Assembly: GCA_964593405.1 (NCBI GenBank)
Contig: CAZQIO010000001.1
Coordinates: 2,263-66,262, forward strand
Origin: an uncultured Candidatus Saccharibacteria bacterium
Lineage (GTDB): Bacteria; Patescibacteriota; Minisyncoccia; Minisyncoccales; GBS-2
Direction of reading: 5' to 3'
Length of the DNA: 64,000 bases
Notes under the pieces: generated by a model
The model's database searches: none
What the model saw: only the letters and a program-made list of their open reading frames with translations
What the model was told of the DNA's origin: nothing
Shown here: positions 20,949 to 53,917 of the stretch, piece by piece
How positions within the stretch are numbered: position 1 is the first letter of the stretch
How the letters are laid out: the number at the start of each line of letters is the position of its first letter
Made by a program: the position numbers and the translations under genes

Positions 20949-22058
20949 TTAGGGCGATGACTTTATTAGTGCTCTCAATTTCTTCTTACATTCTGGGTCA
21001 GTTATGTATTCTGCAAGTTCTTGAAAAGAATAGGGAAAAATTTGTAATGCTTCCTTCAATTCTTCTTTTAATTTTGGATCCCTGAGCATTGCGGCTAATT
21101 TTTCTGTTATTTCTTCTCTTTCAAAAAAGAAAGAAAGTAATGAAGCAAGGGAAACAAAGTGATGAGGACTCAGAGATAACCTCCCTTTCACATTTTTTTT
21201 AAAGTCGATTTTGCCTTTGGTAGTTAACCTCAATTCTTTGTTTGAAGCATCTAAGAGCAGTTTGCGAAAAATGAGCAGGCGATCTTTTATCTTTTCATCC
21301 AAACTTTGGTGTAAAAAACACTCTGTTTGTTGGAGGAGGAATATATACCACCGTAAAAGAACGATTACTTCTTGTTTTGAAAAACTATCCCAATCAATAG
21401 AGAAAACCCTTATTGTGTTTTCAACTTCCTCCATGGGAAGGGGGAGGAAAAAAATTGGAATGTTTGAACATTCTTTTATTTCTATTCTCCGTCCTTTTTC
21501 AGAAACTTCCAAAGAAATGCCATATTTTAGTTTTGCTCCGCCTTTTGTATTTATCTCTGAAACCACTCTTGTTTTCTTTCTATAACTAATTCCCCCAACT
21601 TCTGAAACCTCATCTATAGCACAAACTATCTCTCCTTGCGGATTTAATATAATGTTGTCTACCTTATTGAAGAAATCATCATATTCTGAAGTTCTAACCA
21701 CAATCCAATCTTTACCTAAAAACTTGGCAAAAACAGCTACTTTTAACCTTTCTAACCACTCTCCCCATTCTTCCGATTTTTCTTTAATGCTTAAAAGTAT
21801 CCTTTCTGGATCTTTTCTATATGCCAACAATTGTTTTATTTCATTTCTCGGAAAGTTTATTTTACGCTTTACATTTTCGAGCCGTTTTCGGTCTTCGGGT
21901 GTTAGTTCAGGAACAAGTCGACACCCATTGTCTACTCGACACCCCCACCTCTGTAATTGTCCTGCATAATCGTTTAAGAACTGCATCAATCTTTCCCTCC
22001 CTTTTTCAACCGGTTCCTCTGAACCCTCAATTGTTACTGGAGAGATTTTCTCTGGCAT
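20949..22058 (-). CDS. hypothetical protein (369 aa)
   Basis: Long ORF with no motif I recognise. Confidence 0.4.
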   Translation of the reverse strand: MPEKISPVTIEGSEEPVEKGRERLMQFLNDYAGQLQRWGCRVDNGCRLVPELTPEDRKRLENVKRKINFPRNEIKQLLAYRKDPERILLSIKEKSEEWGEWLERLKVAVFAKFLGKDWIVVRTSEYDDFFNKVDNIILNPQGEIVCAIDEVSEVGGISYRKKTRVVSEINTKGGAKLKYGISLEVSEKGRRIEIKECSNIPIFFLPLPMEEVENTIRVFSIDWDSFSKQEVIVLLRWYIFLLQQTECFLHQSLDEKIKDRLLIFRKLLLDASNKELRLTTKGKIDFKKNVKGRLSLSPHHFVSLASLLSFFFEREEITEKLAAMLRDPKLKEELKEALQIFPYSFQELAEYITDPECKKKLRALIKSSP

Positions 22059-22093
22059 ATGAAAAAATTTAATTGGTGAAAAGAAAATTAAAT

Positions 22094-22183
22094 TGGTGCC
22101 CGGGGAGGGACTCGAACCCTCACGGGGTTTTACCCCCAGTAGATTTTGAGTCTACCGCGACTTCCAGATTCCGCCACCCGGGC
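22094..22183 (-). tRNA. tRNA-Leu(CAA), CCA encoded
   Basis: Reverse complement gives acceptor GCCCGGG/CCCGGGC, anticodon stem GTAGA/TCTAC with loop CTCAAAA, a long variable arm, T arm GAGGG-TTCGAGT-CCCTC, ACCA tail. Confidence 0.8.
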
Positions 22184-22353
22184 TCAATTTTCATTTTCTT
22201 AATTTTTTTCTAAATTGTCAATTGAAGACTTGACAACAATCTTTTTTGGATTAAAATAAACAAGGGAAAACCATGAGGAAGATAATGAAAATTTACACGA
22301 GAACCTACAAAAACTGTTTGGCGGCATTTTGTATTTTTATTAATTTTCTCTAG

Positions 22354-22414
22354 CAGGGGGTAAGAGAGGGAGCAAGAAATTATTTAAAACTTCTCTAACC
22401 CCCTGCAAAGGGGG
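22354..22414 (+). promoter_or_regulatory. structured 5' leader of greA with mutually exclusive helices involving the Shine-Dalgarno
   Basis: CAGGGGGT (22354-61) can pair with ACCCCCTG (22398-405). Alternatively CCCCCT-GCAA-AGGGGG (22399-414) forms a GNRA-capped hairpin that buries the AGGGGG SD 14 nt upstream of the ATG. Confidence 0.3.
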
Positions 22415-22427
22415 CCTTCAAAATTAT

Positions 22428-22901
22428 ATGAGAAAAAAATTCTACCTGACAAAAGAAGGATTAGAAAAATTAAAAAGAGAGTACCAAAACTTGAAAGCTT
22501 TAAAATTGAAGCAATTGAAAGGAAATTTGCCCCAGATTTTTCATTCTGAAGATATTAATCCTGAATATTTAGCTTTTAAAGAAGACATGAATTTTTTAGA
22601 AACTAGACTTGCCGAATTAGAATTTATTTTGAAAAATTTTCAGTTGATCAAACCTCCTCCAAAAGAACTCCAAAACCACGTTGCCTTGGGGGCAACCGTC
22701 ACTTTAGAAGATGAAAGCGGGGCAATCAATGAATTCACTATAGTGGGCACGTTAGAGGCAAATCCAATGGAAGGAAAAATTTCAAACGAATCTCCAGTAG
22801 GAAAAGCCCTTTTGGGGAAAAAAGTTGGAGACATTGTTGAAATACTTTCCCCAATTAGGGTGGTGTATAAGATAAAAAAAATTAAATATCATTTATCTTG
22901 A
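22428..22901 (+). CDS. greA: transcription elongation factor GreA
   Basis: N-terminal coiled coil (LTKEGLEKLKREYQNLK) and a C-terminal FKBP-like domain (PVGKALLGKKVGDIVEI). Confidence 0.8.
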   Translation: MRKKFYLTKEGLEKLKREYQNLKALKLKQLKGNLPQIFHSEDINPEYLAFKEDMNFLETRLAELEFILKNFQLIKPPPKELQNHVALGATVTLEDESGAINEFTIVGTLEANPMEGKISNESPVGKALLGKKVGDIVEILSPIRVVYKIKKIKYHLS

Positions 22902-22904
22902 GAA

Positions 22905-24173
22905 ATGAAAAAAATTCTCAATTTCCTCATTAGAGTTAACAAGTTGAAAGAAATACCAAGAACTGGGTGGGTGTTGAGAGGAGTCAAAAATCCTGAAACG
23001 ATCGCCGAACACACCTTCCGTTTAGCAGTAATGGTTTGGCTATTTGGAGAAGAAAAGAAATTGGAAGTTCAAAAAATGATCAAAGAAGCTTTATTTCATG
23101 ACATTTGCGAAGTTTATGCAGGGGATATTCCCCCATTTTTTTATTATTTACAAGTTCTAAAAAGTAAACAAAAAAAAGAAGAAATTTTTGCCAAATGGGT
23201 TAGACTTTCCCAAAAAGAAAAAATAAAGAGGTCAAAAATGAAATTAAAAAAAGAAAAGCAAGCACTTCTGAAAGTAATAAAGGGATTGAAAAATGAGTGG
23301 AAAAAGGAAATTCTTTCTTGTTTTGTTGATTATGTAGAAGGACTTTCAAAAGAGGGAAGATTTTTTAGGCAAGTAGACAAAATAGAAACATTCCTTCAGG
23401 CAATAGAGTATTTTGGTCCCCACGCAAAACTTCTTAATGCTTGGTGGGAAGAGATTGAAGAGATAGTTGAGGATCCTTTACTTTTGGAATTTATCAAAGT
23501 TGTAGAGAAAAAATTCTACGGAAAATCGAAAAATGCTCAGAGGAATAGAAAAGTAGAAAATTTTTTAGATTTCTTTTTAAAGATCGGAAAAATAAAAAGA
23601 ATACCGAGGTTGTATTGGATTTTAAGGAAAATCAAAAATCCAGAAACGGTTGCCGGCCACATTTTTACTGTTGCAATAATGGCTTGGGTTTTTGGGAAAG
23701 AAAAACCGCACTTGAGTATGGAAAAACTTTTAAAAATGGCTCTTTGCCACGAAATCACAGCAATAGAAACTGGGGATACAACCCCCTACGATAGAATTTT
23801 AAAGACAAAAGATAAAGAAAAAGAAAAAATCCTAGCAAAAATGATCAGGCTTTCAGAAAAAGAGAAAAAAAAGAATTTTTGGGCAGATTATAAAAAAGAA
23901 AAGAAAACTCTTGAAAAAATAACAAAAAACTTAGATAACGAAACCAAAAAAGAAATAATCAACCTTTGGGAAGATTACAGAAAAAAAGAAAGTTCAGAAG
24001 GGATTTTTCTTTCTCAATTGAACACTGTCGCAGTTTTGTTCCAGGGAGTTTTGTACAAAAAGAAAATTAAAAATTTTTCCACCTCTCCCCTTTGGGAATG
24101 GGCCTTTGAAAGCGTCTCTGATCCATTGATTTTAAAATTTCTCGATGCCTTAAAAGAGTATGAAAAAAATTAA
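22905..24173 (+). CDS. tandem double HD-domain phosphohydrolase (YfbR-like 5'-deoxynucleotidase duplicated within one ORF)
   Basis: Two internal repeats: IPRTGWVLRGVKNPETIAEHTFRLAVMVWLF...HDICE and IPRLYWILRKIKNPETVAGHIFTVAIMAWVF...HEIT. Confidence 0.7.
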   Translation: MKKILNFLIRVNKLKEIPRTGWVLRGVKNPETIAEHTFRLAVMVWLFGEEKKLEVQKMIKEALFHDICEVYAGDIPPFFYYLQVLKSKQKKEEIFAKWVRLSQKEKIKRSKMKLKKEKQALLKVIKGLKNEWKKEILSCFVDYVEGLSKEGRFFRQVDKIETFLQAIEYFGPHAKLLNAWWEEIEEIVEDPLLLEFIKVVEKKFYGKSKNAQRNRKVENFLDFFLKIGKIKRIPRLYWILRKIKNPETVAGHIFTVAIMAWVFGKEKPHLSMEKLLKMALCHEITAIETGDTTPYDRILKTKDKEKEKILAKMIRLSEKEKKKNFWADYKKEKKTLEKITKNLDNETKKEIINLWEDYRKKESSEGIFLSQLNTVAVLFQGVLYKKKIKNFSTSPLWEWAFESVSDPLILKFLDALKEYEKN

Positions 24174-24903
24174 AGTTGGATGTTGCGGATTTCCTGAAAA
24201 CAAAAAAGAGTACTTTAAAAAATTTTCTTTAGTTGAGTTGCAATCTACTTTTTACGAAATTCCGGCAAAAATGGAAACTGTGAAAAAATGGAGAGAGGAG
24301 GCTCCAAAAGATTTTGAGTTTTCTCTGAAAGCATTTCAAGTAATAACTCACGATGCTTCAAGTCCTACTTACAAAAAATTGAAAAGAAAATTTGGTAATC
24401 AAAAAAATTATGGATTTTTTAAAAACACAAAAGAAGTATTTTTGGCTTGGGAGATGACAAAGAATGTGGCAAAAGAATTAAAAGCAAAAGTTATTGTTTT
24501 TCAATGCCCTTCTTCCTTTAAGCCAGAAAAAGAGAACATAAAAAATTTTGAAAACTTTTTCAAAAAAATAAAAGAGAAAAATTTTATTTTTGCTTGGGAA
24601 CCAAGAGGAGAATGGTCAGAAGATTTGATTAAAAATCTGTGCAAAAAATTGAATTTGGTCCATTGTGTTGACCCTTTCAAACAAAAACCAGTTTTTGGAA
24701 AAATAAATTACTTTAGGTTGCACGGAAAACCAGGATACAATTTAAAGTACAATTATACTATTGAAGATTTCAAAGAACTTTTGAAGTTTTGTGACAAAAA
24801 AGAAAACTACGTTTTGTTTAACAATTTAAATATGGGAAAAGATGCCCAAAGTTTTCAAAAGCTCCTCAAAAATGTTCCACATTATATTGCCATGGCAAAA
24901 TAA
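24160..24903 (+). CDS. DUF72 (YecE-like) family protein, paralog 1
   Basis: VGCCGFP...ELQSTFYEIP matches the DUF72 signature. Tandem with the next gene. Confidence 0.6.
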   Translation: MKKIKVGCCGFPENKKEYFKKFSLVELQSTFYEIPAKMETVKKWREEAPKDFEFSLKAFQVITHDASSPTYKKLKRKFGNQKNYGFFKNTKEVFLAWEMTKNVAKELKAKVIVFQCPSSFKPEKENIKNFENFFKKIKEKNFIFAWEPRGEWSEDLIKNLCKKLNLVHCVDPFKQKPVFGKINYFRLHGKPGYNLKYNYTIEDFKELLKFCDKKENYVLFNNLNMGKDAQSFQKLLKNVPHYIAMAK

Positions 24904-24915
24904 TGTGGCACAATT

Positions 24916-25668
24916 ATGAGTGAAGTTTTTATTGGGACATCGGGGTATATTTATCCCCATTGGGAAGGAGTTTTTTATCCTCTAGGCTGGCCCAAAGCAA
25001 AAAAATTGGAATACTATTGCCAGCATTTTGATACAGTTGAACTAAACAATACTTTTTATAGGCTTCCTGGTAAAAAAACTTTTGAAAGTTGGTACAAAAG
25101 AACTTCCAAGAATTTTATTTTCGCAGTCAAGGTTTCAAGATTCATCACTCATATTAAAAAATTGAAAGATTGCCGAGAATCTTGGGAGATATTTTTAAAG
25201 CGGGCTTTAATTTTAAAAGAAAAACTAGGCCCTCTCTTGTTTCAGTTGCCACCTTCTTGGAAAAAGGATGCAAAAAGGTTGGAAGAATTTTTAAAACTAA
25301 TAACTAAAAACCTAGAACCTAAAACCTCAAACTTAAAGTTTGCTTTTGAATTCAGGAATGAAACTTGGTGTTGCCAAGAAATTTATGATTTGTTGAAAAA
25401 ATACAATTGCGCTTGGGTTGTTGTCGATTCTCCCCATTGGCCAAAGGTTTTCCAGGTTACTGCAGATTTTGTTTATGTTAGAATGCACGGTTCAAAAATT
25501 TTGTTTGGTTCAAAGTATACAAAAAAGGAATTAGAGAATTTGGCAGAAAAAATTAAAGAATGGCAAAAACAAAGATTAGATGTTTTTGTCTATTTTAACA
25601 ACGACGCCCATGGCTTTGCAGTTCAAAATGCAAAAGAATTATTAAGATTGACAAAGAATTTTAAATAA
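24916..25668 (+). CDS. DUF72 (YecE-like) family protein, paralog 2
   Basis: IGTSGYIYPHWEGVFYP...YYCQHFDTVELNNTFYRLP canonical DUF72 N-terminus. Confidence 0.7.
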   Translation: MSEVFIGTSGYIYPHWEGVFYPLGWPKAKKLEYYCQHFDTVELNNTFYRLPGKKTFESWYKRTSKNFIFAVKVSRFITHIKKLKDCRESWEIFLKRALILKEKLGPLLFQLPPSWKKDAKRLEEFLKLITKNLEPKTSNLKFAFEFRNETWCCQEIYDLLKKYNCAWVVVDSPHWPKVFQVTADFVYVRMHGSKILFGSKYTKKELENLAEKIKEWQKQRLDVFVYFNNDAHGFAVQNAKELLRLTKNFK

Positions 25669-46849: not shown

Positions 46850-46889
46850 CTAACCACTAAAAAATAATTACTAAAAATCACTAATTTTG

Positions 46890-47187
46890 TGGAGATGGCG
46901 GGATTCGAACCCGCGTCTGGGGGTTGACCTGGGTCTCCCTCTACGGCTATAGTCGATTTTTTAGTCTATCTGGAATACTAGTAAATCGACAAACCTAGTA
47001 TTCCACTCAAAGAAATAAAGAACAACCCCCTCAACTATGACACCTGTTCCCTAACCGAGGGGATTTAGGGACAGGCGCTTGTCTACCCGATAATTAAGCG
47101 TAGACAAGAGCAGGAGTTTGTGTGGCAGGATTTTTGGCCGCCAGAAACCCAGGTTCCTTTCCCCCATCGATTCCAAAAACCATCCCC
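46890..47187 (-). ncRNA. ssrA: tmRNA (ssrA), ~298 nt
   Basis: 5' GGGGAUGGUUUUUGGAAUCGAUGGGGG... The 3' end is ...GCGGG-UUCGAAU-CCCGC-CAUCUCC-A. The acceptor pairs with a G3:U wobble (alanine identity). Candidate tag ORF ...GCU CUU GUC UAC GCU UAA. Adjacent to smpB. Confidence 0.65.
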
Positions 47188-47226: not shown

Positions 47227-47685
47227 TTATCTTTTCAAAAAATATTCTTTCAAGGTTCTCTGAATTTCTTTTTCTATTTCCTTCTTTTTTTTCTCTTCTT
47301 TTTTTGAGACCTTCTTTTTTCTTTTGCCAACACCAAATTCCAACTTTATTTTACCACCTTTTACATAAAGACGCAAGGGAACAAGGGTTACACCTTTTTG
47401 TTTTGATTTTCCAGCTAAATATTTAATTTCAGATTTTTTCAACAAAAGCTTCCTTTCTCTTTGAACATCATAATTGCCCCCGATGTTTTTTGGCTGCCAG
47501 GGAATGATCGTTGCCCCTACCCAAAAAGCCTCCCCACCTTTAATGACAACATAAGTTCCCAGAAGGCTTGTTCCTTGCGATTTTAAGGTTTTTACCTCTT
47601 GACCAAAAAGTGAAATACCAGCTTCGAACTTTTCCAAAATTTCATAATCAAAATAAGCCTTTTTGTTTTCACTCAAAATTTTCAT
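47227..47685 (-). CDS. smpB: SsrA-binding protein SmpB
   Basis: KKAYFDYEILEKFEAGISLFGQEVKTLK ... Lys-rich C-tail. Confidence 0.9.
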   Translation of the reverse strand: MKILSENKKAYFDYEILEKFEAGISLFGQEVKTLKSQGTSLLGTYVVIKGGEAFWVGATIIPWQPKNIGGNYDVQRERKLLLKKSEIKYLAGKSKQKGVTLVPLRLYVKGGKIKLEFGVGKRKKKVSKKEEKKKKEIEKEIQRTLKEYFLKR

Positions 47686-47726: not shown

Positions 47727-49331
47727 ATGGTCAGAGAAAAAATTAAAAATTTAATTGCCAAAAGCTTGAAAAATCTTCAAAAAAGAGCCATTTTGCCACC
47801 ATTTGAATTTTCAAAAACCCAAATCGAAATTGAAAAGCCAAAATTTGCTTTTCAGGGTGATTATTCCACAACGTTAGCCTTTGTCTTGGCCAAAAAACTT
47901 GAAAAAAAACCAGAAGAAATTGGCCAATTTTTGAAATCTGAAATAGAAAAAGAAAAAGTTTTTGAAAAGGTAGAAGTAGTCAAACCTGGTTTTGTTAATT
48001 TTTTTCTTTCAAGAGAATATCTTCAAGAAAAATTAAAAGAAATCCTCAAAGAAGGCGAAAAATTTGGCCGGGCAAAGAAAAGAAAAGGAAAAAAAGTTCA
48101 GGTTGAATTCATTTCTGCCAACCCAACTAGTCAATTGCACATTGGAAACGGAAGAGGAGCTTTTTTTGGCGATGTTTTGGCAAACGTTCTTGAAATGGCA
48201 GGTTTTGATGTGGAAAGAGAATATTTTATTAACGATGCCAAAACGAACACTCAAATTAGACTTTTGGGACAGACTGCCTTAGGCAAGGGGACTGCCTATT
48301 TGAATGAATATCTCAAAGAAAAAATTAAAAAGCTTCAATCAAAATTGAAAAAAATCTCAGATGAAAGAGAAGCTGGCTATTTGCTTGCTCAAGAAATCCA
48401 AAAGGATAACAAAAAATTTATCGAAACAAAATTAAAGATCAAATTCGATAATTGGGTTTCAGAAGAGAAACTTTACAAAATAGGAAAGGTAAAGAAAGTT
48501 TACGAAATTTTAAAAAAAGAAGGATTGGTTTACAAAAAAGAAGGGGCAGAGTGGTTGAAAATTTCGGCCTTTGGAGCTCCAAAAGATGAAGTTATAATCA
48601 GGAGGGACGGTAACCCAACCTATTTTCTTTCAGACATTGCCTACCATAAAGACAAGTTTGAGCGAGGTTATCACAAAATTATCAATATTTGGGGGGCAGA
48701 CCATCAGGGCCATGTACCAAAAATTAAGGCAATAGCTAAAATTTTTGGCTTTCGGGGAGAATTGGAAATTTTGATTTCTCAACTGGTAAGATTAAAAGGT
48801 GGTCAAAAAATGTCAAAGAGAAAAGGAGAAATTGTTACCCTTGAAGAATTGATCGACGAAGTCGGTTTGGATGTAGCAAGATTCTTTTATTTAACAAAAT
48901 CTTTAGATTCTCAAATGGAGTTTGATTTAGAATTGGCTAAAGAACAATCAGAAAAGAATCCGGTTTACTACATCCAATACGCTCACACTAGAATTTGTGG
49001 AATCTTGAGAAAATGCAAAAAAATCGAACTGAAAAAATCTGACCTGAGAAATCTCAAATTTTTGAACCATCCCAGCGAAATAAACCTTATTAAGCAATTA
49101 ATCAGACTTCCAGAAATTGTCGAAGACACGGCCAAAGATTATCAAATTCAGAGAATTCCTCAATATGCCCTAGATTTAGCAAGTTCTTTTCATCATTTTT
49201 ACAAAGAATGCCGCGTATTAGAAGAAAAAGAAAACTTAAAAAAAGCACGACTCTTTTTGTGTTTGGCTACAAAAACAGTTTTAAAAAACGTTTTAAACTT
49301 AATGGGAATTTCAGCCCCAAAGAAAATGTAA
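47727..49331 (+). CDS. argS: arginyl-tRNA synthetase
   Basis: Add-1 N-domain, HIGH variant ANPTSQLHIGNGRGA, KMSK variant QKMSKRKG, and a DALR anticodon-binding C-terminus. Start at the ATG MVREKIKNL; the track's 47568 start overlaps smpB. Confidence 0.85.
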   Translation: MVREKIKNLIAKSLKNLQKRAILPPFEFSKTQIEIEKPKFAFQGDYSTTLAFVLAKKLEKKPEEIGQFLKSEIEKEKVFEKVEVVKPGFVNFFLSREYLQEKLKEILKEGEKFGRAKKRKGKKVQVEFISANPTSQLHIGNGRGAFFGDVLANVLEMAGFDVEREYFINDAKTNTQIRLLGQTALGKGTAYLNEYLKEKIKKLQSKLKKISDEREAGYLLAQEIQKDNKKFIETKLKIKFDNWVSEEKLYKIGKVKKVYEILKKEGLVYKKEGAEWLKISAFGAPKDEVIIRRDGNPTYFLSDIAYHKDKFERGYHKIINIWGADHQGHVPKIKAIAKIFGFRGELEILISQLVRLKGGQKMSKRKGEIVTLEELIDEVGLDVARFFYLTKSLDSQMEFDLELAKEQSEKNPVYYIQYAHTRICGILRKCKKIELKKSDLRNLKFLNHPSEINLIKQLIRLPEIVEDTAKDYQIQRIPQYALDLASSFHHFYKECRVLEEKENLKKARLFLCLATKTVLKNVLNLMGISAPKKM

Positions 49332-49373: not shown

Positions 49374-52300
49374 ATGGAACCAAATTTTCCACAAATAGAA
49401 AAACAAATACTTAATTTTTGGAAGAAAAATTCAATTTTTGAAAAAAGTCTCAAAGGAAAGAAAAAAAACTTTATCTTTTACGAAGGGCCACCAACAGTTA
49501 ATGCTCCTCCCGGTCTCCATCATGTCTTGTCTCGAGTTTACAAAGATATAATCTGTCGCTACAAGACAATGCAGGGCTTTAAAGTGGAAAGAAAGGCAGG
49601 CTGGGATACTCACGGCCTTCCGGTTGAGCTTCAGATAGAAAAAAAGTTGGGAATCAAAATAAAAAAGGAGATTGAAAAAATTGGAATAAAAAAATTCAAC
49701 GCCGAATGCAAAAAATCAGTTTTTGCCTATAAAAAAGATTGGGAAAATATGACAGAAAGGATTGGATTTTGGTTGGACCTCAAAAACCCTTATGTTACTT
49801 TCTATCCAGAATACATTGAGTCTTTGTGGTTTATTTTGAAAAAAATCTGGGAAAAAAAGCTTTTGTATCAGGATTTTAAAGTCACAGCCTTTTGTCCAAG
49901 ATGCGGCACCAGTTTATCAACTCATGAAGTTGCTTTAGGTTACAAAAAAGTCAAAGAACCAGCAATATATGTGAAGTTCAAAGTTTTAGACTCAGAATTC
50001 GAAAATACCTTTTTGTTAATTTGGACAACCACCCCCTGGACTTTACCAGGGAACGTGGCCGTAGCGGTCAATCCCCAATTCACTTATGTACTTTTTGAAC
50101 ACCACCCAACGAAAGAAAATCTGATCGTAGCAAAAGAAAGGCTTGAAAAGTTAGGAGAAAAGGGAGAGGTAAAAAAAGAATTTAAGGGCAAAGATTTGGT
50201 TGGTCTCAAATATCAAGCACCGTTTAATTTTTATCAGCCAGATCCCGACAAAGATAGAATGTTTGAGGTAATAGCTGGAGATTTTGTGAGCCTCGAAGAA
50301 GGAACGGGTTTAGTCCACATAGCTCCAGCTTTTGGTGAGGAAGATTTAGATTTGATTAAGAAAGAAAATTCAAAAAACAAAGGAAAAAAATTCCCAATCT
50401 TAATTAACGTTGACCAAGAAGGAAAATTCAAACCCGAAGTTCAAAAATGGGCAGGCCTTTTTGTTAAAGATGCCGATTCTGGCATCATTCAAGATTTGAA
50501 AGAAAGAGGTCTTTTGCTCAAAGAAGAACTTTATGAACACGATTACCCCTTTTGTTGGAGGTGTTCTACTCCTCTTTTGTACTACGCAAAAAAAAGTTGG
50601 TTTATTGGAGTAACAAAAGTTAAAAGAAATTTAATTGCCAATAACAAAAAGATCAATTGGGTGCCAGAGTTTATTGGAAAGGGAAGGTTTGGTGAATGGT
50701 TGAGGGAAGTAAAAGACTGGAATCTTTCTAGAGAAAGATATTGGGGAACACCATTGCCAGTTTGGAAGTGCCTAAAGTGCGGCAATGAAATTGTTATAGG
50801 CTCTAGGGCAGATTTGTTAGAGCAAAAATTCTCCACCAATAAATATTTGATTTTAAGACATGGCGAATCAAAAATGAACGTTAAAAAAATTTTAATTTCT
50901 ACTTTACCAGAAAAAGTGGCCTGCCCCCTCACTGAAAGAGGAAAAGCGCAAATTTTCCAAGCAGCAAAAAAGTTGAAAAAAGAAAAAATTGACCTAATTT
51001 TCTCTTCTGACCTTTTGAGAGCGAGGCAAACTGCAGAAATTGTTGCTAAAATTACTGGAGCAAAAATAATTTTCGACAAAAGATTAAGAGACATTCAGGG
51101 AGGAATTTTTGAAGGAGAAAGAATCGAAAAATTTCTTGCCTTTTGGAAAAGTTATGAAGAAAAATATACAAAAAGACCCCAAAAAGGAGAAAATTATCAA
51201 GACGTCAAAAAGCGAATGATTAAGGTAATTGAAGATTTAGAAAGAAAATATCAAGGAAAGACAATTCTCATTGTTTCCCATCAAAGACCTTTGGCAATGC
51301 TTGAAGGAGCAATGAAAGGATTTTTGATAGATGAGTTCGAAAAATTCATAGAGCCAAACTTAATCAAAACTGGCGAAATAAGAGAAATTGAATATAAAAA
51401 ATTCCCTTACAACGAAAAAGGAGAATTAGATTTTCATCGACCTTACGTTGACGAAATAAAGTTTTTCTGTCCAAAATGCCAAGGAAAAATGGAAAGAGTT
51501 GCAGAAGTTGTAGATTGCTGGTTTGATTCTGGAGCTATGCCTTTTGCCCAGTATCATTGGCCATTTGAAGGAAAATTCAAGCCTTCTTTTAAAAACCAAA
51601 AACTCAAACCGCCAAAACTGTTTCCAGCAGATTATATTTCAGAAGCTGTCGATCAAACCAGAGGGTGGTTTTACACTCTTTTGGCAGTTTCAACACTTTT
51701 GGGTTTCGGCCCTCCTTACAAAAATGTTGTTTCCCTCGGTCACGTTTTGGATGAGAAAGGAGAGAAAATGTCAAAATCGAAAGGTAATGTTGTCGATCCA
51801 TTTTACATTGTAGAAAAGTATGGAGCCGATGCCATCCGTTGGTACTTTTTCACTGTTAATCAACCTTGGGACGCCAAGCTTTTCTCTGAAAAAGATGTCC
51901 TTTCTGTTTTAAGAAGGTTTATTTTAACTCTTTGGAATTCTCATTTGTTCTTGAAAACCTACGTTCCAAAAACAAAAATAAAGAAAACAGAAAAATCAAA
52001 AAACGTTTTAGATAGATGGATTGTTTCTAGGTTAAATAGATTAATTTTGGAAACAACTCAACTTTTGGAAAAATATCAAATAACAAAAGCTGCTACCTTA
52101 ATCGAAAATTTTGTCGTCAATGACCTTTCTTTATGGTACATTAGAAGATCTCGAAAAAGATTTCAAAATCCAAAAACCAAAAAAGAATTTACGGAAGCTG
52201 CCGAAACCCTCTCTTTTGTTTTGTTGACCTTGGCTAAAATTTTAGCTCCCTTTATTCCCTTTTTAGCTGAGAAAATTTTCAAAGATTTAACTAACAAAAC

Positions 52301-52853
52301 AAAAGCTTCCGTTCATTTGGAAAAATGGCCAAGACCAAATTTAAAAGCAATCGATAGGAAATTAGAAGAAAAAATGGAAAAAGTAAGAGAAATAATCAGC
52401 CAGGCTTTAGCTGAAAGGGCAAAGACAAAGATTAAAGTAAGACAACCACTCAATCGATTGACTATTCCAGATAAAACAATCTATAAAGAAAAGAGCCTTT
52501 TAGAATTAATTAAAGAAGAAGTGAATGTTAAAGAAGTTATCGTTGGAGAGAAATTGGAATTGGACCTTTCAATTACCCCAGAATTAAAAGAAGAAGGATT
52601 GGCGAGAGAATTGATAAGACAGGTGCAGCAAATGAGAAAAGAAATGGGCCTTTTCCCAAAAAATAAAACAAAAATTTACTTTTTTGCTCAAGAAAATTTA
52701 GAAAGAATTGTTGAAAAGTACAAAAAGGAAATATTACTCCAAACAAAGAGTAAAGAGATTCTTTGGCAATTGCCTCCAAAAAACTCTTTCCAAAAAGAGG
52801 TAAAGGTCAATGACTCTTTAATAAAAATTGGATTGGTGAAATATGGTGTTTAA
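49374..52853 (+). CDS. ileS: isoleucyl-tRNA synthetase with an inserted histidine-phosphatase (PGM-like) domain at ~50829-51431
   Basis: HH (HIGH variant PPGLHH), CP1 editing domain, KMSKSKGN, and Zn knuckles CLKCG/CPKCQG. Between the two CxxC pairs sits ~200 aa with LILRHGES (RHG catalytic His), an RARQT-like motif and SHQRPL (second His). Confidence 0.9.
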   Translation: MEPNFPQIEKQILNFWKKNSIFEKSLKGKKKNFIFYEGPPTVNAPPGLHHVLSRVYKDIICRYKTMQGFKVERKAGWDTHGLPVELQIEKKLGIKIKKEIEKIGIKKFNAECKKSVFAYKKDWENMTERIGFWLDLKNPYVTFYPEYIESLWFILKKIWEKKLLYQDFKVTAFCPRCGTSLSTHEVALGYKKVKEPAIYVKFKVLDSEFENTFLLIWTTTPWTLPGNVAVAVNPQFTYVLFEHHPTKENLIVAKERLEKLGEKGEVKKEFKGKDLVGLKYQAPFNFYQPDPDKDRMFEVIAGDFVSLEEGTGLVHIAPAFGEEDLDLIKKENSKNKGKKFPILINVDQEGKFKPEVQKWAGLFVKDADSGIIQDLKERGLLLKEELYEHDYPFCWRCSTPLLYYAKKSWFIGVTKVKRNLIANNKKINWVPEFIGKGRFGEWLREVKDWNLSRERYWGTPLPVWKCLKCGNEIVIGSRADLLEQKFSTNKYLILRHGESKMNVKKILISTLPEKVACPLTERGKAQIFQAAKKLKKEKIDLIFSSDLLRARQTAEIVAKITGAKIIFDKRLRDIQGGIFEGERIEKFLAFWKSYEEKYTKRPQKGENYQDVKKRMIKVIEDLERKYQGKTILIVSHQRPLAMLEGAMKGFLIDEFEKFIEPNLIKTGEIREIEYKKFPYNEKGELDFHRPYVDEIKFFCPKCQGKMERVAEVVDCWFDSGAMPFAQYHWPFEGKFKPSFKNQKLKPPKLFPADYISEAVDQTRGWFYTLLAVSTLLGFGPPYKNVVSLGHVLDEKGEKMSKSKGNVVDPFYIVEKYGADAIRWYFFTVNQPWDAKLFSEKDVLSVLRRFILTLWNSHLFLKTYVPKTKIKKTEKSKNVLDRWIVSRLNRLILETTQLLEKYQITKAATLIENFVVNDLSLWYIRRSRKRFQNPKTKKEFTEAAETLSFVLLTLAKILAPFIPFLAEKIFKDLTNKTKASVHLEKWPRPNLKAIDRKLEEKMEKVREIISQALAERAKTKIKVRQPLNRLTIPDKTIYKEKSLLELIKEEVNVKEVIVGEKLELDLSITPELKEEGLARELIRQVQQMRKEMGLFPKNKTKIYFFAQENLERIVEKYKKEILLQTKSKEILWQLPPKNSFQKEVKVNDSLIKIGLVKYGV

Positions 52854-53154
52854 ACAATTAAAAGAGTTGATAATCTCACCATATGAAGGATATGAAATCA
52901 CAGAACATCTTTTAGAGGAAGATAGGAAAAAATTGGCAGATGGTTTGGGAAAATTTTTGAAATCGCTGAAAAATTTCTTTGGAGAACCAGACCAAATGGA
53001 AGTGACCAAAGATGATATACAAAAACTTATCGAATATTTTAGAGGTTATCCTAGCCAAAGAGATAATTTTATTAAAGGATTGCGCCTTTCAACAGAATTA
53101 CATCCAGCAAGATTGGAAAGAATTTTGCAAAGATTGCTTGAGAAAATTTCTTGA
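52843..53154 (+). CDS. hypothetical protein (103 aa)
   Basis: ORF overlapping the ileS end by 11 nt. Confidence 0.3.
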   Translation: MVFKQLKELIISPYEGYEITEHLLEEDRKKLADGLGKFLKSLKNFFGEPDQMEVTKDDIQKLIEYFRGYPSQRDNFIKGLRLSTELHPARLERILQRLLEKIS

Positions 53155-53167
53155 ATTTTCCCAAAAT

Positions 53168-53917
53168 ATGTTTGTGAGGGAAAGGACTGTTGGGTTGATT
53201 TTTCAAAAGAAGGAATTTAGGGAAGCAGATCAAATAATTTCTGTTTTTTCCCAAGACTTTGGAAGGATAGAAGTTCTTTGCAAAGGGATTAGGAAAATTG
53301 CCTCAAAATTAAAGTATGGAATAGAAATTTTTTATCTTAGCGAAATCGAAACTGTTAAAGGATATTATTCGAGAATTCTTACAGATGTTCAAGTGGTCGA
53401 AAAATTTTCTCAAATCAGAAAAAATTTGGCCAGATTGTCGATTGCTTATCAAATTTCCGAAGTTTTGGATGGTTTGATCAAAGAGTCAGAAAGAGAAGAG
53501 AAAATTTGGAATTTGCTTTTGAACACTTTTTCTATTTTGAACAATCAAAATCTCAACTTAACAATTTGCCATTTAAGTTTTTACTATTTTTTTTGGAATT
53601 TGGTTAACGTTTTGGGGTTTGGGCCAAGGCTAAAAAATTGTGTTTTTTGTCAAAAAAGAATTTTAAACCATTTAATTTATTTTTCGGCAGAGGATGGCGG
53701 AGTGGTTTGTAAAGAATGTTTTTTAACACAAAAAAAAGGAGAAAGGGTTTCTCAAAGGTTGATTAAGTTTTTAAGAGCCTTTCTTGAGTTTGAGTTTGAT
53801 CTGATTAAAAAAGTGAAAGTAAAAAAAAGCGATTTTGCGGAAATGAAAACGATTACCAAAAGATATTTTCAAAACCTAATCGAAAAACACTATGCGAGTT
53901 CGAATTCGAATTTTTAA
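53168..53917 (+). CDS. recO: DNA repair protein RecO
   Basis: N-terminal OB fold (GLIFQKKEFREADQIISVFSQDFGRIEVLCKGIRK) and a C-terminal Zn finger CVFCQ...CKEC. Start at the ATG MFVRER. Confidence 0.7.
   Translation: MFVRERTVGLIFQKKEFREADQIISVFSQDFGRIEVLCKGIRKIASKLKYGIEIFYLSEIETVKGYYSRILTDVQVVEKFSQIRKNLARLSIAYQISEVLDGLIKESEREEKIWNLLLNTFSILNNQNLNLTICHLSFYYFFWNLVNVLGFGPRLKNCVFCQKRILNHLIYFSAEDGGVVCKECFLTQKKGERVSQRLIKFLRAFLEFEFDLIKKVKVKKSDFAEMKTITKRYFQNLIEKHYASSNSNF

What the first reader, a model, noticed from the sequence alone, without database searches (positions are those of the whole stretch)
50829..51431. Isoleucyl-tRNA synthetase carries an inserted histidine-phosphatase (phosphoglycerate-mutase-like) domain
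The ileS ORF (49374-52853, 1159 aa) is continuous and in frame. Between the first zinc knuckle (PVWKCLKCG) and the second (FFCPKCQG) most IleRS have only a few dozen residues. Here there are ~200 extra residues. They begin YLILRHGESKMN, which is the RHG catalytic-His motif of histidine-phosphatase branch 1. They also contain RARQT-like and SHQRPL motifs, the conserved Arg and second His. It is not an intein: there is no Cys/Ser/Thr at the N-junction and no HN-(C/S/T) at the C-junction. I do not know of a phosphatase or mutase module embedded in an aaRS catalytic core. It could be a moonlighting activity, for example on a phosphorylated tRNA or nucleotide intermediate, or a regulatory graft.
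Basis: partly seen in the sequence, partly recalled or inferred. Interest (0 to 1): 0.8.

Follow-up and report, generated by a model that had tools for sequence, protein, structure and literature searches.

The report
Phosphatase domain embedded in isoleucyl-tRNA synthetase
A whole group of tiny symbiotic bacteria (Patescibacteria/CPR) carries an apparently active phosphatase enzyme spliced into the middle of an essential protein-synthesis enzyme (IleRS), and their relatives keep the same phosphatase as a separate gene right next to it, which points to an undescribed partnership between the two.

Summary
The 1159-aa ileS ORF (49374-52853) is intact and carries a complete branch-1 histidine-phosphatase domain (Pfam His_Phos_1, E=2e-38; domain proper aa 488-672). 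About 203 residues replace an 11-residue loop between the two halves of the second Cys4 zinc knuckle. It is not an intein or a mis-assembly: an independent assembly differs by one residue, and all 120 best database homologs have the same architecture. The catalytic set R495/H496/R549/(D/E)573/H636 is conserved in 120/120. The domain models confidently, and its nearest folds are small phosphatases (PhoE, PspA, GpgP, CobC), not mutases.

New here: in related Patescibacteria whose IleRS lacks the insert, a free-standing homolog (37-52% identical to this insert among cluster representatives; up to 77% to other inserts) lies immediately upstream of ileS, often overlapping it (argS-phos-ileS). Fused genomes read argS-ileS(+insert), as in this window. 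In an unbiased sample, 3 of 4 insert-less ileS genes had it. Some IleRS carry 2-4 copies at up to three sites, each complete copy keeping the catalytic residues.

So this is most likely an active phosphomonoesterase partnered with IleRS; its substrate is unknown. I found no description of it in the searchable literature. I rate it a new variant of a known kind, interest about 0.65.

The parts
49374..52853 (+). ileS: type-2 isoleucyl-tRNA synthetase, 1159 aa, with embedded phosphatase domain
   Evidence: Continuous ORF. TIGR00392 917.5 bits vs cutoff 621.4. Best PDB matches are T. thermophilus IleRS 1ILE and P. megaterium IleRS2 8C8U-W. Pfam tRNA-synt_1 / His_Phos_1 / Anticodon_1 / DUF5915.
49512..49523 (+). 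Class I signature motif in its non-canonical form G47-L48-H49-H50 (GXHH instead of HXGH)
   Evidence: Aligns to H-V-G-H of 1ILE. G47 and H49 invariant, H50 >=90% in the family. Motif described in PMC10485003.
50769..50780 (+). First half of the second Cys4 zinc knuckle (C466-L-K-C469)
   Evidence: Corresponds to 1ILE C461/C464. Both Cys invariant in 59 sequences. Translation checked.
50817..51425 (+). Inserted segment (aa 482-684, 203 residues) replacing the 11-residue loop 477-487 of T. thermophilus IleRS
   Evidence: The phmmer alignment to 1ILE breaks at query 481/685, i.e. 1ILE 476/488.
50835..51389 (+). Histidine phosphatase (branch 1) domain proper, aa 488-672
   Evidence: Pfam PF00300 E=2e-38. 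Borders set by free-standing homologs that match insert positions 3-187 and end at ...GELRKL. AF2 pLDDT 88 and pTM 0.85 alone, 90-96 in the full-length model. Foldseek TM 0.72-0.78 to PhoE, PspA, GpgP and CobC.
50856..50864 (+). R495-H496-G497: phosphate-binding Arg and nucleophilic His
   Evidence: Aligned to R9-H10 of PhoE. R and H 120/120, G 119/120 in homologs.
51018..51020 (+). R549: second phosphate-pocket arginine (SSDLLR motif)
   Evidence: Aligned to PhoE R59. 120/120.
51090..51092 (+). D573: general acid/base position (Glu in PhoE; E 70 / D 50 in the family)
   Evidence: RLRD aligned to RLRE of PhoE. Column is only E or D in 120 sequences.
51279..51281 (+). H636: second catalytic histidine (VSHQRP)
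   Evidence: Aligned to PhoE H151. 120/120.
51468..51479 (+). Second half of the zinc knuckle (C699-P-K-C702)
   Evidence: Corresponds to 1ILE C502/C504. Invariant.
51765..51779 (+). KMSKS loop (K798-S802) of the synthetase
   Evidence: Invariant in the family alignment. Translation checked.
47727..49331 (+). argS (ArgRS, 534 aa), 42 nt upstream of ileS. In split-gene relatives the free-standing phosphatase gene sits in this gap.
   Evidence: ORF. Homologous gene called with Arg_tRNA_synt_N / tRNA-synt_1d / DALR_1 in L088. Synteny argS-phos-ileS versus argS-ileS+insert.

Best explanation
The window's ileS encodes a type-2 IleRS. A complete, catalytically competent branch-1 histidine phosphatase is inserted into the surface loop of the second zinc knuckle, in the connective-peptide region of the catalytic domain. 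The phosphatase is a small PhoE/PspA-type phosphomonoesterase, not a mutase.

The module is the same protein that related Patescibacteria encode as a separate ~190-aa gene immediately upstream of ileS, apparently translationally coupled to it. Phosphatase and IleRS therefore form a conserved functional pair that has been welded into one polypeptide in many lineages.

A plausible route, which is my inference, is duplication of the [phos + 5' ileS] segment, then an in-frame deletion, then loss of the upstream copy. This leaves argS-ileS(+insert), as seen here.

The mechanism of the module would be the canonical one. H496 attacks a phosphomonoester to form a phospho-histidine intermediate. R495, R549 and H636 hold the phosphate, and D573 acts as the general acid/base.

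Shown: the domain's identity, its site, its conserved catalytic residues, its autonomous fold, its lineage-wide distribution, and the complementary fused and adjacent-gene states.

Inferred: that the phosphatase is active and that its activity is tied to IleRS function.

Unknown: the substrate. The retained cap region and the nearest folds favour a small phosphomonoester (a nucleotide or metabolite) over a macromolecule.
For: Identity and site.

Catalytic set: R495, H496, R549 and H636 are 120/120 and position 573 is only E or D. Nearly every copy in the multi-copy IleRS variants keeps R-H...R...E...H.

Selection: mean pairwise identity of the insert is 0.52, against 0.73-0.75 for the Rossmann core and 0.51 for the C-terminal domain. 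It is therefore constrained like a peripheral functional domain.

Fold: pLDDT 88, pTM 0.85. Best PDB neighbours are PspA 4IJ5/6, HFP 9MMH, GpgP 4PZ9/6S2Q, PhoE 1H2E/1EBB and CobC 6E4B.

Distribution: 120/120 best homologs carry PF00300. Among GTDB species representatives, 44 fused loci come from Nealsonbacteria, Paceibacter, Yanofskybacteria, Tagabacteria, Colwellbacteria, Wolfebacteria and Minisyncoccales.

Exclusive host: among the best 150 of 1.84 billion cluster representatives, every multidomain hit is an IleRS.

Gene-pair state: free-standing homologs sit directly upstream of an insert-less ileS, with gaps from -10 to about +40 nt in most loci.

Complementarity: of 59 loci with a fused ileS, none has a separate phosphatase gene.

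Unbiased sample: starting from insert-less IleRS proteins, 3 of 4 have the phosphatase upstream. One of these (L092) lacks argS but keeps a 4-nt phos-ileS overlap.

Repeated association: some IleRS have a second copy at a different site (the Rossmann/anticodon-domain junction), a copy after aa ~415, or tandem copies. The L044 free-standing domain is 77% identical to the L065 insert while their IleRS cores are 51% identical.
Against: No activity or substrate has been measured, and conserved residues do not prove catalysis.

Operon adjacency in compact genomes can be functionally meaningless. E. coli ileS also has an unrelated small-molecule enzyme (ribF) directly upstream.

One of the four sampled insert-less ileS genes has neither an insert nor an adjacent phosphatase (L091), so the partnership is not obligatory, at least in cis.

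The full-length model is poor in the synthetase core (pTM 0.52; aa 365-461 and 711-805 have pLDDT <50). I could not determine whether the phosphatase active site faces the aminoacylation site, the KMSKS loop or the tRNA.

The NJ trees are star-like with no support values, so the direction and number of fusion/fission events are unresolved.
Confidence: 0.65

Rival explanations
1. Hitchhiking housekeeping enzyme. The phosphatase is an ordinary metabolic phosphomonoesterase (for example a phosphoserine, sugar-phosphate, flavin-precursor or nucleotide phosphatase) that happened to share an operon with ileS. It was captured into a permissive surface loop by a neutral duplication/deletion event. It works independently of IleRS, and the fusion only guarantees co-expression in a streamlined genome.
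For: The nearest folds and sequences are all small-molecule phosphatases with a cap subdomain. No NCBIfam equivalog is reached, so it is a generic member. E. coli keeps ribF directly upstream of ileS without a known functional link. One insert-less ileS lacks the neighbour. The insertion site is a peripheral loop that is only 11 residues long in T. thermophilus.
Against: The pair is retained across lineages whose IleRS cores are only ~45-50% identical, and even where argS linkage is lost. Neutral fusion of adjacent genes should give an N-terminal fusion, not a mid-domain insertion. Insertions recur at two or three different sites and in 2-4 copies within IleRS, and nearly all copies are catalytically intact. 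No host protein other than IleRS appears among the best 150 representatives.
Confidence: 0.27
2. Built-in repair or antidote module acting on a macromolecule. The tethered phosphatase would remove an inhibitory phosphate from IleRS itself (as HipA/HipT-type kinases place on class I synthetases), or from the 3' end of tRNAIle (as toxSAS enzymes or nucleases leave). This would restore aminoacylation.
For: Precedents exist. HipA phosphorylates GltX and HipT phosphorylates TrpS (PMC8262856, PMC6581861). toxSAS toxins pyrophosphorylate the tRNA CCA end (10.1101/2021.04.30.441581, PMC11559606). From general knowledge, branch-1 members such as SixA, PGAM5 and Sts-1 act on phosphoproteins. The association with one synthetase is exclusive. 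A more distant tandem phosphatase gene sits upstream of tyrS in one lineage.
Against: The domain keeps a full cap region like small-molecule phosphatases and scores below the SixA cutoff (37 vs 74.5 bits). A pyrophosphorylated 3' end is not a simple monoester. No kinase or toxSAS gene was seen next to the locus in any context examined. The geometry relative to the KMSKS loop and A76 could not be modelled.
Confidence: 0.12
3. Catalytically silent structural or regulatory graft. The domain would serve as a phosphate or ligand sensor, a dimerisation module or a docking surface, not as an enzyme.
For: An editing-domain-less IleRS paralog (P0215; second gene of L013) has lost the nucleophilic His (RAG), so a non-catalytic version can persist. 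Histidine phosphatases are commonly dimers (general knowledge), which could explain two-copy variants.
Against: All five catalytic positions are conserved in 120/120 single-copy IleRS and in nearly all extra copies. A pure scaffold would not maintain them over this divergence.
Confidence: 0.05
4. Artefact or selfish element: a chimeric assembly join, an intein or another mobile insertion.
For: None beyond the unusual length of the ORF.
Against: An independent assembly has one substitution and the same synteny. Hundreds of homologs from JGI, ENA, NCBI and Logan share the same junctions. Composition is uniform. There is no Hint/intein Pfam hit and no room for one, and the junction residues are not intein-like (sequence).
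Confidence: 0.01

Closest known systems
Type 2 isoleucyl-tRNA synthetase (IleRS2), e.g. Thermus thermophilus 1ILE and Priestia megaterium IleRS2 8C8U
   Same: Full-length homology outside the insert (815 and 807 bits). It has the CP1 editing domain, two Cys4 zinc knuckles, KMSKS, the anticodon-binding domain and the type-2 C-terminal domain (DUF5915). It has the GXHH signature variant known from many IleRS2.
   Different: About 190 extra residues forming an autonomous enzyme domain in the loop of the second zinc knuckle. Neither a 2023 structural/evolutionary study nor a 2026 survey of 96,219 IleRS sequences mentions such an insert.
PhoE (YhfR) broad-specificity phosphatase of Geobacillus stearothermophilus (1EBB, 1H2E) and other small branch-1 phosphatases (PspA 4IJ5, GpgP Rv2419c 4PZ9, CobC 6E4B, HFP 9MMH)
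   Same: Same fold (TM 0.72-0.78), same length class (~190-210 aa) and the same catalytic pentad. 28-29% identity to PhoE over the whole domain.
   Different: Those are free-standing enzymes with known small-molecule substrates. This one is embedded in, or genetically paired with, an aaRS. It reaches no equivalog cutoff, so its substrate cannot be transferred by homology.
Cofactor-dependent phosphoglycerate mutase (dPGM; TIGR01258, NF038349)
   Same: Same superfamily and RHG chemistry. The archaeal short dPGM model is the best NCBIfam hit (106.9 bits).
   Different: Below both cutoffs (106.9 vs 225; 32.3 vs 81.7). Classical dPGM structures rank below the phosphatases and align with higher rmsd.
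Other IleRS variants with an added enzymatic domain: NCBIfam NF040702 'isoleucine--tRNA ligase, N-acetyltransferase domain-containing'
   Same: Shows that IleRS proteins carrying an extra enzyme domain are already recognised by NCBI curators.
   Different: That is a different domain (GNAT) and a different family. This protein scores 305.7 against a cutoff of 1999. I did not determine where the GNAT domain sits.
Rosetta-stone (fusion versus adjacent-gene) pairs in general; trans-acting partners of aaRS such as free-standing editing factors (general knowledge)
   Same: The same module occurs fused in some genomes and as a neighbouring gene in others. This is the classical signature of functional partnership.
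   Different: The partner is a phosphoryl-transfer enzyme with no known role in aminoacylation or editing. The fusion is an internal domain insertion rather than an end-to-end fusion.

Membership tests
Histidine phosphatase superfamily, branch 1 (Pfam PF00300) | Profile match above the curated gathering score | tested here: met
   132.4 bits (insert alone) and 127.9 bits (whole protein) against a cutoff of 21.7; profile positions 2-171 of 194.
Histidine phosphatase superfamily, branch 1 (Pfam PF00300) | RHG motif with the nucleophilic His, two further phosphate-pocket residues (Arg, His) and an acidic proton donor | tested here: met
   R495-H496-G497, R549, H636 and D573 aligned to R9/H10/R59/H151/E83 of PhoE. 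Conserved in 120/120 homologs, with position 573 always E or D.
Histidine phosphatase superfamily, branch 1 (Pfam PF00300) | Alpha/beta PGM-like fold | tested here: met
   AF2 model pLDDT 88, pTM 0.85. Foldseek probability 1.00 and TM 0.72-0.78 to PhoE, PspA, GpgP and CobC. This is a predicted fold, not a solved one.
Histidine phosphatase superfamily, branch 1 (Pfam PF00300) | Phosphomonoesterase (or mutase) activity through a phospho-histidine intermediate | not testable with these tools
   Requires an enzyme assay with an H496A control.
Cofactor-dependent phosphoglycerate mutase (TIGR01258 pgm_1; NF038349 dPGM_arch) | Score at or above the curated cutoff of the family model | tested here: not met
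   32.3 vs 81.7 bits, and 106.9 vs 225 bits.
Specific small phosphatases (CobC TIGR03162, PspA NF045917, SixA TIGR00249, GpmB NF002901) | Score at or above the curated cutoff | tested here: not met
   84.9 vs 162.9; 76.8 vs 350; 37 vs 74.5; 81 vs 261.
Isoleucyl-tRNA synthetase (TIGR00392 ileS equivalog) | Score above the equivalog cutoff | tested here: met
   917.5 vs 621.4 bits, with the match in two stretches around the insert.
Isoleucyl-tRNA synthetase (TIGR00392 ileS equivalog) | Class I signature motifs (HIGH-type and KMSKS) and the CP1 editing domain | tested here: met
   KMSKS at aa 798-802 is invariant. The HIGH position carries the documented IleRS2 variant GLHH. The CP1 region aligns continuously with 1ILE.
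Type 2 IleRS (IleRS2) | Closest relatives are IleRS2 enzymes; type-2 C-terminal domains rather than the IleRS1 zinc-binding domain | tested here: met
   Best PDB hits are 1ILE and 8C8U-W (IleRS2) at ~800 bits, against ~320 bits for IleRS1 (1FFY, 8C9E). The C-terminus matches DUF5915.
Acquired mupirocin-resistance IleRS (MupA NF000257, MupB NF000258) | Score at or above the exception-model cutoff | tested here: not met
   796 and 822 bits against a cutoff of 1900.
Intein | Hint domain, with a Cys/Ser/Thr at the N-junction and His-Asn followed by Cys/Ser/Thr at the C-junction | tested here: not met
   No Hint or intein family at E<=0.01. The insert is fully accounted for by the 185-aa phosphatase fold. 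The junctions read ...EQKFS|TNKY... and ...IREI|EYKKFPYNEKGELDFHRP.

The most novel reading that the evidence does not exclude
The IleRS-tethered (or operon-partnered) histidine phosphatase would be a previously unknown accessory activity of an aminoacyl-tRNA synthetase. It would act on a phosphorylated species generated at the synthetase, for example by removing an inhibitory phosphate from the enzyme's own active-site loop or from the 3' end of tRNAIle. This would give Patescibacteria a built-in defence or quality-control step for isoleucine charging. The repeated, multi-site, multi-copy recruitment of the same catalytically intact domain into IleRS would be the evolutionary footprint of that function.
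Probability: 0.15. Interest if true: 0.9.

Novelty: new variant of a known kind. Interest (0 to 1): 0.65.

Why it matters
Aminoacyl-tRNA synthetases are among the best-studied enzymes, and their accessory domains (editing, tRNA-binding, signalling) have repeatedly revealed new biology. This case has three unusual features:
- A phosphoryl-transfer enzyme is embedded in the catalytic domain of an essential synthetase.
- It is conserved across a large part of the Patescibacteria.
- It is interchangeable with a translationally coupled neighbouring gene.

If the coupling is functional, it would define a new class of aaRS partner activity and could illuminate how ultra-small symbiotic bacteria protect or regulate translation. 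If it is only a hitchhiker, it remains a clean natural example of internal domain insertion from an adjacent gene.

There is also a practical annotation point. Pipelines name these proteins only 'isoleucyl-tRNA synthetase' or 'class I tRNA ligase family protein', so metabolic reconstructions of CPR genomes may overlook, or mis-assign as PGM, the phosphatase hidden inside.

The question is directly testable. The split version occurs in *Ca.* Microsyncoccus archaeolyticus, which is studied in Patescibacteria enrichment cultures (PMC10936435).

Tried and rejected
1. Scanning GTDB genomes with an 18-sequence alignment of inserts failed because no stretch was conserved enough. I used the single protein instead.

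2. NJ trees of the phosphatase domain and of the IleRS core were meant to decide fusion versus fission and the number of events. They are star-like and carry no support values. I use only the robust pairwise contrast of 77% (domain) versus 51% (core) for L044/L065.

3. The full-length AlphaFold model was meant to show where the phosphatase active site points. The synthetase core is poorly modelled (pTM 0.52) and no coordinates are returned, so no geometric conclusion was drawn.

4. I considered that other host proteins (ValRS, LeuRS, ArgRS) might carry the same insert. Every multidomain protein among the best 150 representatives turned out to be an IleRS or an IleRS fragment.

5. Free-standing tandem-double phosphatases: P0235 is not linked to ileS. 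P0222 is upstream of tyrS. Both are more distant (32-38% identical), so I do not count them as part of the system.

6. Literature searches for IleRS or aaRS combined with histidine phosphatase, phosphoglycerate mutase, CPR/Patescibacteria or fusion found nothing relevant.

7. Intein, mis-assembly and recent horizontal acquisition were rejected.

8. I noted a possible flavin link (structural neighbour 9MMH is a riboflavin-pathway phosphatase; ribF lies upstream of ileS in E. coli) but did not adopt it. 9MMH is a weaker sequence match (41 bits) than PhoE (69 bits).
Full report
**1. The observation**

The ORF 49374-52853 (+) is continuous and encodes 1159 aa. It is an isoleucyl-tRNA synthetase. 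The NCBIfam ileS equivalog scores 917.5 bits against a cutoff of 621.4, and the match is split at residue ~484. Pfam reports tRNA-synt_1 in two pieces, Anticodon_1 and DUF5915, plus His_Phos_1 at residues 492-660 with E=5e-37.

Alignment to T. thermophilus IleRS (1ILE) covers query 2-481 (1ILE 7-476) and query 685-1018 (1ILE 488-819). So 203 residues replace an 11-residue loop. The loop lies between the two halves of the second Cys4 zinc knuckle: C466/C469 and C699/C702 here, C461/C464 and C502/C504 in 1ILE. All four cysteines are invariant in the family. In current IleRS nomenclature this is the connective-peptide (CP2/CP3) part of the catalytic domain (PMC11685878).

Composition is continuous across the junctions. 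All feature coordinates were checked by translation.

**2. Not an artefact, not an intein**

A protein from an independent Logan assembly (DRR163687, 11.6-kb contig) differs by one residue (Q603P). It lies in the same gene order: smpB, argS, ileS+insert, a 103-aa ORF, recO. All 120 best hits in the 5.8-billion-protein database are 1096-1220 aa and carry PF00300 together with the IleRS domains. They come from JGI, ENA, NCBI and Logan.

No intein family is hit. The phosphatase fold fills the insert apart from short linkers, and the junction residues are not intein-like.

**3. What the insert is**

It aligns end to end with the solved broad-specificity phosphatase PhoE (1EBB/1H2E, E=4e-18). R495-H496, R549, D573 and H636 fall on PhoE's catalytic R9-H10, R59, E83 and H151. 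In 120 homologs these positions are invariant, except that position 573 is E in 70 and D in 50.

Mean pairwise identity of the insert is 0.52. The Rossmann core is 0.73-0.75 and the C-terminal domain is 0.51. The insert is therefore constrained like a peripheral functional domain.

In the full-length AlphaFold model the insert has pLDDT 90-96. Modelled alone it gives pLDDT 88 and pTM 0.85. Its best structural neighbours are small phosphatases: PspA, the riboflavin-pathway HFP, GpgP, PhoE and CobC, with TM 0.72-0.78. The longer dPGMs rank lower. No NCBIfam equivalog cutoff is reached, including dPGM, CobC, PspA and SixA. So it is a bona fide branch-1 histidine phosphatase of unassigned specificity, and more phosphatase-like than mutase-like.

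**4. Distribution and the key new finding**

I searched 1.84 billion cluster representatives exhaustively with the insert alone. This gave 17,682 hits at E<=1e-3 and 54 at E<=1e-30. Among the best 150, every multidomain protein is an IleRS or an IleRS fragment, and nearly all have the domain at the same site. The rest are free-standing proteins of ~180-215 aa, 37-52% identical to the insert, that match insert positions 3-187. This defines the domain proper as aa 488-672.

A scan of GTDB species representatives returned 55 loci, 54 of which encode close relatives and are labelled Patescibacteria/Parcubacteria-type, unclassified 'bacterium', or (one) Acutalibacteraceae. Named taxa include Nealsonbacteria, Paceibacter normanii, Yanofskybacteria, Tagabacteria, Colwellbacteria, Wolfebacteria and Minisyncoccales. 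Forty-four carry the fused gene.

In the ten loci with a free-standing phosphatase, the gene lies directly upstream of an insert-less ileS on the same strand, with gaps of -10 to +4 nt in seven of them. In two more the gap is ~1-1.7 kb, and in one the contig ends. Metagenome loci and stored gene calls show the same arrangement and add argS. Split genomes have argS-phos-ileS. Fused genomes, including this window with its 42-nt argS-ileS gap, have argS-ileS(+insert).

Over all loci held, none of 59 fused loci has a separate phosphatase gene.

Those split loci were found through the phosphatase, so I also started from insert-less IleRS proteins and looked upstream of four of them:
- L089, L090 (*Ca.* Microsyncoccus archaeolyticus) and L092 have the phosphatase gene.
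- L092 lacks argS but keeps a 4-nt phos-ileS overlap.
- L091 has neither an insert nor a neighbouring phosphatase.

The association is therefore with ileS rather than argS. It is predominant but not universal.

**5. Variants**

Some IleRS carry more than one copy:
- P0217 has the Pfam order tRNA-synt_1 / His_Phos_1 / tRNA-synt_1 / His_Phos_1 / Anticodon_1. Its second copy sits at the junction before the anticodon-binding domain.
- P0232 has two tandem copies.
- P0144 is a complete 1161-aa ORF seen in two assemblies. It has the N-terminal half of IleRS, four phosphatase domains (the last partial), and no KMSKS or anticodon part.

Every complete copy in these multi-copy IleRS variants keeps R-H, R, E and H. 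The exception is an editing-domain-less IleRS paralog (P0215; second gene of L013), whose motif reads RAG. It scores only 320.8 bits on the ileS model.

The free-standing L044 domain is 77% identical to the L065 insert although their IleRS cores are 51% identical, while the average domain identity is lower than the core identity (0.42 vs 0.49). This indicates module exchange or repeated transitions between the split and fused states. The NJ trees are too poorly resolved to say more.

**6. How it most likely works**

Shown:
- A complete histidine-phosphatase domain with an intact active site sits on a surface loop of IleRS.
- Related genomes encode the same protein as an apparently translationally coupled upstream gene.
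- The two states are complementary.

Inferred:
- The domain is an active phosphomonoesterase using the canonical phospho-His496 mechanism.
- Its activity is functionally tied to IleRS. The arguments are the Rosetta-stone logic, the persistence of the pair over deep divergence, the recurrence of insertions at several sites, and the exclusivity of the host.

A simple origin, which is my inference, would be duplication of the segment [phos + 5' part of ileS]. This leaves an intact ileS downstream and so gives a viable intermediate. An in-frame deletion and loss of the upstream copy would follow.

The substrate is unknown. The retained cap region and the nearest folds favour a small phosphomonoester. 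Macromolecular targets (phospho-IleRS, or a phosphorylated tRNA 3' end) have precedents in HipA/HipT and toxSAS biology but no direct support here.

The main rival is a housekeeping phosphatase that merely shares an operon with ileS and was captured neutrally. The E. coli ribF-ileS arrangement shows that such neighbours exist.

**7. Comparison with what is known, and novelty**

The host is an ordinary IleRS2 with the documented GXHH signature variant (PMC10485003). The guest is an ordinary small histidine phosphatase. The combination is what is unusual: an internal insertion, lineage-wide, with a split-gene counterpart.

I did not find the combination in the searchable literature. A 2023 IleRS2 study and a 2026 survey that annotated domain architectures of 96,219 IleRS sequences never mention a phosphatase. 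Six other searches were negative.

The sequences are public but annotated only as IleRS or 'class I tRNA ligase family protein'. NCBI does curate another IleRS with an added enzyme domain (GNAT, NF040702), so the general kind is known.

Verdict: a real feature and a new variant of a known kind, with interest about 0.65. Interest would be higher if the coupling to aminoacylation is demonstrated.

Noticed in passing
window 49512-49523: The class I 'HIGH' signature of this IleRS reads G-L-H-H (family consensus GIHH). [quoted passage not shown] The whole phosphatase-bearing family appears to have it.
   Followed up: partly
L081 (P0217), P0180, P0232, P0224; L086/L087 (P0144): IleRS variants with 2-4 histidine-phosphatase domains. 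Copies occur in tandem at the zinc-knuckle site, at the Rossmann/anticodon-domain junction, and after aa ~415. P0144 is a complete 1161-aa ORF seen in two assemblies with only the N-terminal half of IleRS plus four phosphatase domains (the last partial), so it cannot be a working synthetase. Nearly all copies keep the catalytic residues.
   Followed up: partly
L013 7209-10253 (and P0215): A second ileS paralog lies in tandem with the first. It lacks the CP1 editing domain and scores below the ileS cutoff (320.8 vs 621.4). P0215, which has the same editing-less architecture, has lost the nucleophilic His of its phosphatase insert (RAG); in the L013 gene the dPGM-type match begins only at profile position 24, but its RHG motif was not examined. 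It may be a degenerate or neofunctionalised copy.
   Followed up: partly
L044 4487-5134 versus L065 insert: The free-standing phosphatase of L044 is 77% identical to the insert of L065 although the two IleRS cores are only 51% identical. This suggests lateral exchange of the module, or recent conversion between the split and fused states.
   Followed up: partly
L091 (P0473): An insert-less Patescibacteria ileS sits directly after argS with no phosphatase gene between them. At least one lineage has neither form at this locus; the gene may be elsewhere or lost.
   Followed up: no
L084/L085 2081-4890: A more distant tandem-double histidine phosphatase gene and a 109-aa phosphatase fragment gene lie directly upstream of an archaeal-type tyrS (NF006330, 392 bits). 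This is a second phosphatase/class I synthetase adjacency, seen in one lineage only.
   Followed up: partly
window 46887-47187 (-), 47227-47685 (-), 52843-53154 (+), 53012-53917 (+): Conserved neighbourhood: tmRNA (89.5 bits), then an ORF at the position where smpB is called in the near-identical locus L088, divergent from argS-ileS. Downstream, a 103-aa ORF without any Pfam family overlaps the ileS stop by 11 nt and is followed by recO. A small unannotated ORF of 80-125 aa occupies the same place in L077, L088, L089, L090 and L092.
   Followed up: no
L093 (E. coli K-12 21407-25207) and PDB 9MMH: E. coli ileS has ribF (riboflavin kinase/FMN adenylyltransferase) 42 nt upstream. One of the closest structural neighbours of the insert is a histidine-family phosphatase of riboflavin biosynthesis. 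This is possibly a coincidence, and a flavin-phosphate link was not tested.
   Followed up: no
L018 (JBAIWZ010000138.1): A contig carrying a Patescibacteria-type fused ileS is filed under an Acutalibacteraceae (Firmicutes) MAG, which is probably a binning error. Many 'Candidatus Saccharibacteria' labels on binchicken MAGs also look generic rather than specific.
   Followed up: no
window 50582-51094 (-): A 170-aa antisense ORF lies inside the insert-coding region. It has no supporting evidence and is probably a chance ORF, since the sense strand is under clear protein-level constraint.
   Followed up: no
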